Virus record (IMG/VR): IMGVR_UViG_2713896908_000012
Coordinates: 1 to 36,503 of that record
DNA from: a virus
Lineage: Duplodnaviria; Heunggongvirae; Uroviricota; Caudoviricetes
DNA length: 36,503 nt
Strand: one strand, 5' to 3'
This document shows, piece by piece, positions 25,867-26,694 of this stretch. The translations under genes and the position numbers were made by a program. Positions within the stretch are counted from its first letter, which is position 1, and the number at the start of each line of letters is the position of its first letter. A model generated the notes under the pieces. That model had not been told where the DNA came from, did not search any database, and saw nothing but the letters and a program-made list of their open reading frames with translations.

Positions 25867-26661
25867 TTACCCCCTGAAGCCTGGCGGGATCGCACTGTCC
25901 GGCAACGAGACGGTGTTAACCTGCCGAGGCAACGTCTCCGGTCGAACGCCTTTCGGCGCGAACAAGCCCTGGTATTCGTTGGCGATGCTGTGTCGAATCA
26001 CCTGCTCAGGGGTAAAACCCTGCTGGCGGAATTTTTCCAGTTCCCGTATCGCCCCGTTAGCGCCCTGCTCCGTTCGAATCGGTTTTCGCAATGCCTGCCT
26101 GAACCGGACCCACTCACGCCAGAGTGTTTCCGGCAACCAATCGGGCAACTCAATAGCCTCCGGCTCGAATTTTTTAGATGCTCGTTTTTGGCGAGGGGGA
26201 TTTAGGGGGAGATCAGTATTTATATCTTCCTCTTCCTCTTCCTCTTCCTCTGGTAACGCTTTTTGATCCGTTTGTGTAACGCTGGCAGCGTTACCTTTTC
26301 GTTTCAGTTCGCGTATTTTTGTAACCCTCTCGTTTGTAATCGCCCGTTTTTTAGAGCTTTTTCCGTTATGACGTTCAAAGTTAGGTAGAGAAAGCCCACC
26401 GTTATTTTCGACCAGCCATCCAACCTGAATTAACGCATCAGCAAAACCAGCCATAAAAGTGATGCGATCTATTGCACTTTTTGTAACGCTGCGAGCGTTA
26501 CACTCTGCGTTACCGTCTATCATTTGTTGATCCGCCCATGCCCAGAAGCGAATGACTTTCCCTAATGCGGCATCTGGATCAATATTCAGAATCTCAGCAA
26601 GCCTGAATATTTCCGGCTTATCCGGCGTAATAACCTCGAGCTTTATCCAGTTTGAAGCCAT
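25867..26661 (-). CDS. Replication initiator / replisome organizer (lambda O-like function, YdaU-like)
   Basis: Start ATG at 26661 (MASNWIKLEV...); central poly-Glu linker encoded by a (CTTCCT)x4 repeat; 19-bp palindromes inside and just upstream of the gene. Track ORF start at 26739 is an N-terminal over-extension. Confidence 0.65.
   Translation of the reverse strand: MASNWIKLEVITPDKPEIFRLAEILNIDPDAALGKVIRFWAWADQQMIDGNAECNARSVTKSAIDRITFMAGFADALIQVGWLVENNGGLSLPNFERHNGKSSKKRAITNERVTKIRELKRKGNAASVTQTDQKALPEEEEEEEEDINTDLPLNPPRQKRASKKFEPEAIELPDWLPETLWREWVRFRQALRKPIRTEQGANGAIRELEKFRQQGFTPEQVIRHSIANEYQGLFAPKGVRPETLPRQVNTVSLPDSAIPPGFRG
26226..26250. repeat. Hexanucleotide tandem repeat (CTTCCT)x4 encoding poly-Glu in the replication initiator
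   Basis: Plus strand cttcctcttcctcttcctcttcctc; in-frame on the minus strand (GAG/GAA codons). Confidence 0.9.
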
Positions 26662-26694
26662 ATTGTTTTCACCTTGTAACGCTGTAAGCGTTAC
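26276..26694. repeat. Three copies of a 19-bp palindrome GTAACGCT-NNN-AGCGTTAC (26276-26294, 26483-26501, 26676-26694) plus half-sites
   Basis: Perfect 8-bp inverted repeat arms with 3-bp centres GGC/GCG/GTA; half-sites at 26252-26260 and 26507-26515; two copies inside the initiator coding sequence, one 15 nt upstream of its start. Confidence 0.85.

What the first reader, a model, noticed from the sequence alone, without database searches (positions are those of the whole stretch)
26226..26694. Three 19-bp palindromes spaced ~200 bp apart in the replication initiator gene, next to an in-frame hexamer repeat
GTAACGCT-N3-AGCGTTAC occurs three times with perfect arms, two inside the coding sequence (encoding NAASVT and NARSVT) and one 15 nt upstream of the start, plus half-sites. 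This looks like a set of dimer-binding sites (origin or autoregulatory) rather than lambda-style direct iterons. The adjacent (CTTCCT)x4 repeat encoding the poly-Glu linker is a potential slipped-strand length polymorphism.
Basis: seen in the sequence. Interest (0 to 1): 0.5.

Follow-up and report, generated by a model that had tools for sequence, protein, structure and literature searches.

The report
Replication origin inside its initiator gene
The three palindromes are most likely the sites where a prophage replication initiator binds its own gene to start DNA copying, and the same DNA motif sits at the same places in thousands of related, unstudied phage genes from very different bacteria.

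Summary
Three perfect GTAACGCT-N3-AGCGTTAC palindromes lie at 26276-94, 26483-501 and 26676-94 (0.03 expected by chance). Extra half-sites and a (CTTCCT)4.5 tract at 26225-51 lie alongside. The gene (25867-26661, minus strand) is the initiator of a Rac-like prophage. It has an N-domain with no Pfam model, an acidic linker and a DnaT-like C-domain, and a DnaC-like loader gene follows it.

In 325 unique homologous loci, from Enterobacterales to Planctomycetes, Verrucomicrobia and Burkholderiales, the core palindrome recurs at the same two intragenic positions. Only 2 copies occur in 1.14 Mb of flanking DNA. Selection acts on the DNA:
- Synonymous codons are frozen only inside the site.
- The downstream site occurs in all three reading frames.
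- That site is usually an array of half-sites 11-12 or 23 bp apart, abutting a conserved polypurine tract.

Best reading (about 0.7): a lambda-style origin embedded in the initiator gene, built by a non-homologous, uncharacterised family. Binding and origin activity have not been tested.

The parts
26676..26694 (.). Site U: perfect palindrome GTAACGCT-GTA-AGCGTTAC in the 78-bp gap between the ydaT-like gene and the initiator gene. It ends at position -15, next to the ribosome-binding sequence.
   Evidence: An upstream site at -31 to -43 was found in 59 of 325 unique homologous loci, concentrated in the enterobacterial relatives.
26483..26501 (.). Site A: perfect palindrome inside the N-domain coding region (CDS 161-179, encodes NARSVT).
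   Evidence: The core palindrome is present at this zone in 208 of 325 unique loci. Synonymous codons are frozen here: AAC 48/49, GCT 31/45, AGC 35/36, GTT 49/57.
26508..26513 (-). Accessory left half-site GTAACG, 12 bp before site A (encodes the first GNA of DGNAECNARSVT).
   Evidence: A 12-nt duplication of the half-site is typical of the enterobacterial members (alignment).
26276..26294 (.). Site B: perfect palindrome at the start of the interdomain linker (CDS 368-386, encodes NAASVT).
   Evidence: The core palindrome is present in the B zone in 215 of 325 loci, in reading frames 0/2/1 = 149/52/30.
26253..26260 (-). Half-site AGCGTTAC (degenerate site 'B2'), 23 bp after the right arm of site B and 1 nt before the purine run. 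It encodes the conserved A-L-P.
   Evidence: Right half-sites are spaced 23, 11 or 12 bp apart across the family. The gap to the purine run is 1 nt in 165 loci and 2 nt in 31. The Leu codon here is TTA in 38 of 40.
26225..26251 (-). Proposed unwinding or loading element. It encodes the E8 linker.
   Evidence: (Tandem Repeats Finder). A purine run of at least 15 nt lies at this place in 261 of 322 unique loci, against 17 of 1246 background windows. It is (GAGAA)n in 173 loci and (GAGGAA)n in 58.
26299..26355 (-). Codons 103-121: basic helix KSSKKRAITNERVTKIRELKR, the proposed recognition element. T109 and V113 co-vary with base 3 of the half-site.
   Evidence: AlphaFold model, helix 103-121 with low pLDDT. 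Covariation.
25867..26661 (-). Initiator gene (264 aa): winged-helix N-domain, basic helix, disordered acidic linker, DnaT-like C-domain.
   Evidence: ORF; PHROG 2509, E=7e-91; no Pfam hit; DnaT C-domain, PDB 2ru8 and 9zbt; model.
25114..25860 (-). DnaC-like helicase loader (YdaV type), immediately downstream. Presumed partner of the initiator C-domain.
   Evidence: NCBIfam PRK12377, 510 bits; DnaC, 302 bits.

Best explanation
The three palindromes, the extra half-sites and the adjacent polypurine tract together form the replication origin of this Rac-like prophage. The origin is embedded in, and just upstream of, the gene for the initiator that binds it.

Proposed mechanism, with each step marked:
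1. (Inferred) After derepression, rightward-type early transcription makes the initiator.
2. (Inferred from covariation and a predicted fold) Its N-terminal part, a winged helix plus a basic helix at residues 103-121, reads the half-site GTAACG. Residue V113, with T109 on the same helix face, lies opposite base 3. Dimers occupy each palindrome.
3. (Architecture shown, function inferred) The B cluster is the core. It consists of the palindrome at 26276-94 and the half-site at 26253-60, phased by about two helical turns and abutting the 27-nt purine tract. Initiator bound there destabilises the tract.
4. (Inferred from homology) The DnaT-like C-domain holds single-stranded DNA and brings in host DnaB through the DnaC-like loader encoded next door.
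5. (Inferred) Site A, about 200 bp away inside the N-domain coding region, acts as an auxiliary site that loops to B. Site U, an enterobacterial addition next to the ribosome-binding site, probably adds autoregulation.

Because the DNA is constrained, the conserved peptide motifs GNAxSVT and ALP and the charged linker are largely by-products of the origin sequence.
For: 1. Non-randomness and clustering.

2. Conservation of place. In 325 unique homologous loci from many phyla, the core palindrome GTnACG-N7-CGTn'AC is present at zone A in 208, at zone B in 215 and at both in 181. Only 2 copies occur in 1.14 Mb of flanks.

3. Selection acts on DNA, not on the peptide.
- Palindrome-compatible synonymous codons are used 48/49, 31/45, 35/36 and 49/57 times, against 30, 8.8, 9.0 and 16 expected.
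- In other conserved columns with 3- to 6-fold degenerate residues the commonest codon reaches only 0.22-0.64; even two-fold codons reach at most 0.77, against 0.98 for the site's AAC.
- Site B occurs in all three reading frames (149/52/30). It encodes NAxSVT, VTxxALP or SRxERD depending on the frame.
- Site U is non-coding.

4. Origin-like architecture.
- Half-sites in the B cluster are spaced 11-12, 23 or 35 bp apart.
- The last half-site lies 1-2 nt from a polypurine run in 196 loci.
- The run is present in 261 of 322 loci against 17 of 1246 background windows.

5. The cognate reader is the initiator.
- All half-sites of a locus change together: GTCACG, GT[GT]ACG, GTAGACG and others.
- Among columns not encoded by the sites, V113 carries the most information about the half-site type: 0.494 of 0.585 bits. 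V goes with GTAACG in 192 of 202 loci. GTCACG loci have K (18) or Q (15) and never V.
- T109 is the next column, at i/i+4 on the same helix face.
- Several GTCACG loci are as close to GTAACG relatives as to each other, which implies repeated switches.

7. Precedent. [quoted passage not shown] The K-12 Rac ydaU, with a different N-domain, carries its own different intragenic 12-mer repeat.
Against: - No binding or replication experiment exists for any member. No literature on this family's origin was found.
- The tract next to site B is purine-asymmetric but not AT-rich (55% AT). This is unlike classical unwinding elements.
- Three sites about 200 bp apart is not a typical iteron layout.
- Among close E. 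coli relatives the palindrome arms are no less polymorphic than the rest of the region (9/48 against 72/462 columns). The commonest allele of site A has one mismatch.
- The basic helix is modelled with low confidence. Foldseek found no significant structural neighbour.
- Q at position 113 occurs with both half-site types. Part of the residue-to-base association may be phylogenetic.
- A verrucomicrobial subgroup has degenerate sites and no purine tract.
Confidence: 0.7

Rival explanations
1. The sites are operators only. The initiator, or another phage regulator, binds the palindromes to repress or attenuate its own transcription or translation, and the true origin lies elsewhere.
For: - Site U abuts the ribosome-binding site.
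- From general knowledge, dimeric plasmid Rep proteins use inverted repeats as operators and direct iterons as origins.
- All three sites in the window are inverted repeats.
Against: - Most lineages lack site U but keep A and B.
- The B cluster is helically phased and fixed 1-2 nt from a conserved polypurine tract. An operator has no need for that.
- In relatives B contains direct half-site arrays of up to 4 copies.
- No promoter-like site lies near any of the three sites.
Confidence: 0.12
2. The sites are read by a different protein, either a host factor or another phage protein such as the cI-like repressor, YdaS, YdaT or the loader.
For: No direct binding data exist, and several HTH proteins are encoded nearby.
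Against: - The YdaT box is a different sequence and is present separately at 27152-27169.
- The flanking genes checked differ from the window's: the one planctomycete locus scanned carries an SNF2-type helicase and a DNA methylase, and the initiators' own C-terminal halves vary across the family. The sites travel only with the N-domain.
- The half-site variant co-varies with an initiator residue.
- A host factor conserved from E. coli to Planctomycetes would not explain lineage-specific half-sites.
Confidence: 0.08
3. The sites are structure-only elements. The palindromes act as hairpins in mRNA or single-stranded DNA, for example in mRNA stability, termination of antisense transcripts, or primosome assembly signals.
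For: - Each folds into an 8-9 bp stem, -7.6 to -8.9 kcal/mol as DNA.
- On the plus strand, site B followed by CTTTTCGTTT scores as a terminator-like site.
- Pair 3-17 shows compensated changes (52 of 104 variants).
Against: - Sequence, not just pairing, is conserved across phyla.
- Most arm variants are not compensated.
- Direct-repeat half-site arrays cannot form hairpins.
- All sites in a locus change together, along with a protein residue.
- No Rfam family matches.
- The terminator scan found fewer hits than in shuffled sequence.
Confidence: 0.06
4. The pattern is an artefact of coding or chance. The palindrome merely reflects a conserved NAxSVT peptide repeated in the protein.
For: The two internal sites encode the same peptide motif, which is conserved in the family.
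Against: - The third site is non-coding.
- Site B occurs in three reading frames that encode different peptides.
- Synonymous positions are frozen only inside the site.
- The chance expectation is 0.03.
Confidence: 0.02

Closest known systems
Phage lambda / Stx-phage origin and O protein
   Same: - The origin lies inside the initiator gene, at the junction between the DNA-binding N-domain and the C-domain that recruits the helicase-loading partner.
- The repeats are bound by initiator dimers.
- A special tract next to the last repeat is where unwinding is expected.
- The repeats impose amino-acid sequence on the protein (PMC7466680).
- The module sits in the same place: cI, cro, cII-like gene, initiator, loader.
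   Different: - The initiator shows no detectable sequence homology to lambda O (no Pfam hit).
- The sites are 19-bp palindromes about 200 bp apart plus half-sites, not four to six tandem iterons.
- One site lies inside the DNA-binding-domain coding region and one lies upstream of the gene.
- The tract is a polypurine run, not an AT-rich run.
- The C-domain is DnaT-like and the partner is DnaC-like, not lambda P.
E. coli K-12 Rac prophage YdaU and oriJ
   Same: Same module and gene order. The C-terminal 87 residues are nearly identical and the ydaV gene is nearly the same. oriJ is an active Rac origin according to PMC3945230.
   Different: The K-12 YdaU N-domain is a different family (RefSeq annotates it in places as DUF1376). 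It lacks the GTAACG palindromes and the purine tract. It carries its own 12-mer, TTGAACATCTGC, 5 times within the gene. The origin-binding domain and its sites therefore appear to have been swapped together as a cassette.
Iteron-plasmid Rep proteins (RepA of pPS10, RepE of F, pi of R6K)
   Same: Winged-helix initiators with lineage-specific repeats next to an unwinding element. Inverted repeats near the gene start serve for autoregulation (general knowledge; review PMC4980987 is listed). Site U could play that operator role.
Bacterial DnaT (primosomal protein I)
   Same: The C-terminal ~95 residues align to the DnaT C-terminal DNA-binding domain, including the terminal PDSxIPPGFRG (PDB 2ru8 and 9zbt, E=5.5e-5). 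Database records often name family members 'primosomal protein I'.
   Different: The N-terminal two-thirds are unrelated. The NCBIfam DnaT model scores 16 bits against a cut-off of 201. DnaT acts in PriA-dependent restart, not in sequence-specific origin recognition.

Membership tests
Lambda-type origin / O initiator | Initiator homologous to the lambda O N-terminal domain (Pfam Phage_rep_O) | tested here: not met
   No Pfam family at E<=0.01 for the window protein or for any of 30 family members' N-domains.
Lambda-type origin / O initiator | Origin repeats located inside the initiator gene, between the DNA-binding part and the partner-recruiting part | tested here: met
   The B cluster and purine tract lie at codons 123-146, between the N-domain and the C-domain. 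This position is conserved in 215 of 325 loci. This is positional evidence only.
Lambda-type origin / O initiator | Four or more closely spaced tandem ~19-bp iterons | tested here: not met
   The window has three palindromes 193-207 bp apart plus single half-sites. Relatives have arrays of 6-bp half-sites with an 11-12 bp period.
Lambda-type origin / O initiator | AT-rich unwinding tract next to the repeats | tested here: inconclusive
   The adjacent tract is 100% purine on one strand over 27 nt but only about 55% AT.
Lambda-type origin / O initiator | Initiator binding and origin activity | not testable with these tools
   Needs EMSA or footprinting and a mini-replicon assay.
YdaU / DUF1376 family (K-12 Rac) | DUF1376-type N-terminal domain | tested here: not met
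   No Pfam hit. K-12-type ydaU matches only the last ~260 nt of the gene. The translated K-12 YdaU N-terminus is unrelated.
YdaU / DUF1376 family (K-12 Rac) | Shared C-terminal domain and adjacency to ydaT and ydaV | tested here: met
   92% nucleotide identity over the 3' ~260 nt. Gene order is ydaT-like, initiator, ydaV-like.
DnaT (primosomal protein I) | Full-length match to the DnaT equivalog model | tested here: not met
   NCBIfam NF002770 scores 16.1 bits against a cut-off of 201.
DnaT (primosomal protein I) | DnaT C-terminal DNA-binding domain | tested here: met
   phmmer against PDB: 2ru8 at E=5.5e-5 and 9zbt at E=1.2e-4, over residues 171-264. Pfam DnaT (PF17948) hits 5 of 30 family members.
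PHROG 2509 'replication initiation protein' | Full-length profile match | tested here: met
   E=6.9e-91, residues 1-264 against profile positions 1-277 of 277. The name is an annotation, not a tested function.
Winged-helix DNA-binding fold | Helix-turn-helix followed by a beta-hairpin wing | tested here: inconclusive

The most novel reading that the evidence does not exclude
A very large, Pfam-less family of phage initiators (about 6,700 clusters at 50% identity) carries its own origin hard-wired into its reading frame. On this reading the family's signature peptides (GNAxSVT, ALP, the EKRRE/E8 linker) exist because the DNA is the origin. A near one-residue recognition rule links the protein to its site: V113 with an A·T pair, K/Q with a C·G pair, and M with G/T at base 3 of the half-site. 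The (GAGAA)n/(GAGGAA)n polypurine tract fixed 1-2 nt from the last half-site would be a previously undescribed unwinding or helicase-loading element, conserved from Enterobacterales to Planctomycetes.
Probability: 0.45. Interest if true: 0.75.

Novelty: new variant of a known kind. Interest (0 to 1): 0.6.

Why it matters
If the reading is right, it has four consequences.
- It assigns an origin and a recognition sequence to an uncharacterised initiator family. The family occurs in Rac-like prophages of E. coli and Shigella, in epsilon15/SPN1S-type and TL-2011b-type phages, in Xanthomonas, Xylella, Ralstonia and Pseudomonas phages, and in thousands of metagenomic phages.
- It offers a clean natural example of a DNA site dictating a conserved protein motif.
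- It gives a testable residue-to-base specificity rule that could be used to build orthogonal phage or plasmid replicons.
- It points to a polypurine tract, rather than an AT-rich tract, as the element next to the initiator sites. This bears on the open question of how origins are opened.

The practical result for annotation: origins in this family can be predicted from sequence alone.

Tried and rejected
- Rfam scan of 25800-27600 at E<=1: only two chance-level hits.
- Promoter and terminator scan: no promoter near any site. Site B plus its T-run scores as a plus-strand terminator, but the region has fewer such hits than shuffled sequence.
Its footprinted box is ATGATT-N6-AATCAA, and that box lies at 27152-27169 over the ydaT start.
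- Pfam and NCBIfam for the N-domain: nothing.
- Literature searches for oriJ, ydaU, the motif itself, DnaT-like phage initiators and replication modules found no description of this origin. The oriJ plasmid paper (PMID 10964622) is not held.
- Population-level test among 51 unique close relatives: the arms are not less polymorphic than the rest of the region, so shallow divergence is uninformative.
- Helical phasing of the long-range A-B spacing: rejected. The spacing ranges from 184 to 264 bp.
- Annotated phage records carry no rep_origin feature here.

Full report
**1. The observation**

The pattern GTAACGCTNNNAGCGTTAC matches exactly three times in the window, at 26276-26294, 26483-26501 and 26676-26694. 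No other match appears even with three mismatches allowed. The expectation from shuffles is 0.03. The copies are 207 and 193 bp apart, and two of them extend to a 21-bp palindrome, TGTAACGCT-N3-AGCGTTACA.

Seven of the eight AGCGTTAC octamers in the 36.5-kb window lie in 26253-26694. Nine GTAAC/GTTAC pentamers fall within 480 bp, against a window-wide density of 2.0 per kb. Tandem Repeats Finder confirms the hexamer repeat: 26225-26251, period 6, 4.5 copies, 100% match. On the gene strand this is a 27-nt run of pure purine.

The gene is on the minus strand, 25867-26661, 264 aa. The two internal sites encode NARSVT and NAASVT. The third ends at position -15, against the ribosome-binding sequence.

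**2. Context**

The region is the immunity and replication module of a Rac-like lambdoid prophage:
- cI-like repressor, 27498-27917, plus strand
- cro/YdaS-like HTH protein, 27159-27401, minus strand
- YdaT/cII-like protein, 26740-27162, minus strand
- the initiator, 25867-26661, minus strand
- a DnaC-like loader, 25114-25860, minus strand (NCBIfam PRK12377, 510 bits)

The initiator matches PHROG 2509 'replication initiation protein' end to end (E=7e-91). It matches no Pfam model, and neither do the N-domains of 30 relatives. Its last ~95 residues resemble the DnaT C-terminal DNA-binding domain (PDB 2ru8 and 9zbt).

The DNA is 94-99% identical to Rac-like prophages in about 680 complete E. coli genomes and to inducible phages such as vB_EcoS-666R9. 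The K-12 Rac ydaU shares only the 3' ~260 nt, and its N-domain is a different family.

**3. Relatives**

Scans of genomes, viral contigs and metagenomes yielded 400 loci, 332 with unique DNA. Hosts include:
- many Enterobacterales
- Planctomycetes (Stieleria, Novipirellula, Pirellula)
- Verrucomicrobia
- Burkholderiales
- Xanthomonadales, Pseudomonadales and others

Cultured phages with this domain include epsilon15, SPN1S, TL-2011b, Xanthomonas CP2, Xylella Usme, PAN70 and phiPSA1. An exhaustive HMMER search found 6,713 clusters at 50% identity with E<=0.001, of which 4,195 have E<=1e-10.

**4. The DNA motif is conserved in place**

In 325 unique loci with a full region, the core palindrome GTnACG-N7-CGTn'AC is present:
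- at zone A (CDS 130-200) in 208 loci
- at zone B (CDS 300-480) in 215 loci
- at both in 181 loci
- elsewhere only twice, in 1.14 Mb of flanking sequence

The A-to-B spacing is 184-264 bp, median 207. An upstream site at -31 to -43 occurs in 59 loci, concentrated in the enterobacterial relatives.

**5. Selection acts on DNA, not on the peptide**

*Codon usage.* At site A, in 59 loci below 85% protein identity, the palindrome-compatible codon is used far more often than locus codon usage predicts:

| Residue | Codon | Observed | Expected |
|---|---|---|---|
| Asn | AAC | 48/49 | 30 |
| Ala | GCT | 31/45 | 8.8 |
| Ser | AGC | 35/36 | 9.0 |
| Val | GTT | 49/57 | 16 |

In other conserved columns with 3- to 6-fold degenerate residues the commonest codon reaches only 0.22-0.64; even two-fold codons reach at most 0.77, against 0.98 for the site's AAC. 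Synonymous sites are therefore largely saturated outside the element.

*Reading frame.* Site B occurs in all three reading frames (149/52/30). It encodes xNAxSVT, VTxxALP or SRxERD in different lineages.

*Non-coding copy.* Site U lies outside any coding sequence.

*Rare codon.* The conserved 'ALP' uses the rare Leu codon TTA in 38 of 40 cases, because it is the right half-site GCGTTAC.

*A decayed copy.* A truncated copy (L027) nearly keeps the peptide (GNAVCIT) but has lost the palindrome, with 5 mismatches.

**6. Architecture of the B cluster**

In most lineages B is not a lone palindrome. It is an array of left half-sites converging on right half-sites. One example is four GTCACG at 11-bp steps followed by two CGTGAC.

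Successive half-sites are 11-12, 23 or 35 bp apart, that is, one, two or three helical turns. The last right half-site lies 1 nt (165 loci) or 2 nt (31 loci) from a polypurine run.

A purine run of at least 15 nt is present in 261 of 322 loci, against 17 of 1246 control windows. It is (GAGAA)n in 173 loci and (GAGGAA)n in 58. A 5-nt repeat inside a reading frame, with Arg encoded by AGA/AGG although those make up only 21% of Arg codons in the N-domains, again points to a DNA-level constraint.

The window fits this plan exactly: palindrome B (26276-94), a half-site 23 bp further on (26253-60), 1 nt, then the 27-nt purine tract (26225-51). Its copy number does vary among close relatives, at 2, 3 or 4 copies.

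**7. Who reads the sites**

Half-site variants change together at all sites of a locus. Examples are GTCACG/CGTGAC, GT[GT]ACG, and in more distant lineages GTAGACG, GTCCGAC or TGCGGAC. The purine tract stays the same throughout.

I scanned every alignment column without bias for association with the A-type or C-type half-site. The best column not itself encoded by a site is the one aligned to V113, at 0.494 of a possible 0.585 bits:
- V goes with GTAACG in 192 of 202 loci.
- GTCACG loci carry K (18) or Q (15) and never V.
- M goes with G/T types.
- Q is permissive and occurs with both types.

The next column is T109, four residues earlier and so on the same helix face. Several C-type loci are as similar to A-type relatives as to other C-type loci, which indicates repeated independent switches.

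The published YdaT box is a different sequence and sits at 27152-27169.

**8. Interpretation**

The best-supported reading is an origin embedded in the initiator gene. [quoted passage not shown] Here it is built by an unrelated initiator family.

- Shown: the sequences, their placement, the DNA-level selection, the coordinated variation with a protein residue, and the domain homologies.
- Inferred: binding by the initiator, opening at the purine tract, loading of DnaB through the DnaT-like domain and the DnaC-like loader, looping of site A to B, and an autoregulatory role for site U.

The rivals are each contradicted by specific results, given in the rival entries. They are: operator only, another reader, hairpin only, and coding artefact.

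Weak points:
- There are no experiments on any member.
- The tract is not AT-rich.
- The arms are not depleted of polymorphism among close relatives.
- Most E. coli relatives have a one-mismatch site A. The window's three perfect copies are a minority state: only 1 of 80 close loci has three perfect copies.

**9. Novelty**

An origin inside an initiator gene is textbook. New here are:
- the family, which has no Pfam model and no literature found
- the dispersed palindrome plus phased half-site layout
- the conserved polypurine tract
- nucleotide-level conservation across phyla
- the simple residue-to-base covariation

I rate it a new variant of a known kind, with interest 0.6.

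Noticed in passing
window 27152-27169: CTGATTTTCATGAATCAA overlaps the start codon of the ydaT-like gene. It matches the published YdaT box (ATGATT-N6-AATCAA / TTGATT-N6-AATCAA) with one mismatch, in the same position as described for K-12 Rac. A weaker copy lies at 26726-26743, at the ydaT stop codon.
   Followed up: partly
L400:2900-3220 (E. coli K-12 Rac ydaU): The K-12-type YdaU has a different N-domain and carries its own 12-nt repeat, TTGAACATCTGC, five times inside the gene. Three copies cluster in the linker-coding part. It has no GTAACG sites and no purine tract. 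These repeats are candidate oriJ iterons. The pattern suggests that N-domain and sites are exchanged together as a cassette.
   Followed up: partly
window 26276-26304, plus strand: Read on the strand antisense to the initiator gene, site B followed by CTTTTCGTTT scores as an intrinsic-terminator-like hairpin. The count in the region is below the shuffle expectation, so this is probably incidental.
   Followed up: no
L171-L186, L256-L292, L224, L235 (metagenomic and viral loci): Sub-lineages of the family use quite different repeated heptamers in the same region: CGTCTAC/GTAGACG 5-8 times, GTCCGAC, TGCGGAC. They still keep the AGAGAAGAG purine tract. Specificity therefore appears to diversify while the tract does not.
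   Followed up: partly
L027 (Enterobacteriaceae bacterium LSJC7), also P0042 and P0044: These are truncated copies of about 135-145 aa whose sequence diverges after about residue 110. L027 nearly keeps the GNAxxxT peptide but has lost the DNA palindrome and the purine tract (checked in L027 only; P0042 and P0044 were seen only as proteins). They look like decayed or domesticated remnants.
   Followed up: no
L053-L059, L061-L065, L068, L073-L080 (Verrucomicrobia, N-terminus MRRPWIKIE): This subgroup has degenerate sites (AACG-N7-CGTTAC cores), a weak upstream site at -54 to -59, and no obvious purine tract. Some members have extra sites further downstream, at about +580 to +760.
   Followed up: no
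L022 and L023 (Stieleria magnilauensis chromosome): Two copies of the initiator locus, identical in every feature compared here, lie about 44 kb apart in one planctomycete genome. They sit next to an SNF2-type helicase and a DNA methylase.
   Followed up: no
window 27368-27480: The cI-cro intergenic region and the start of cro contain short repeats: CAAGCTGTTTT twice, TTGTGTTATAT and TTGTGTTTTAT, and a palindrome around 27456-27479. These look like operators of the immunity switch.
   Followed up: no
window 24330-25142, minus strand: The gene after the loader encodes a DUF1627 (YdaW-like) protein with weak N-terminal HTH matches. Its start overlaps the end of the loader gene by 29 nt (25114-25142).
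   Followed up: no
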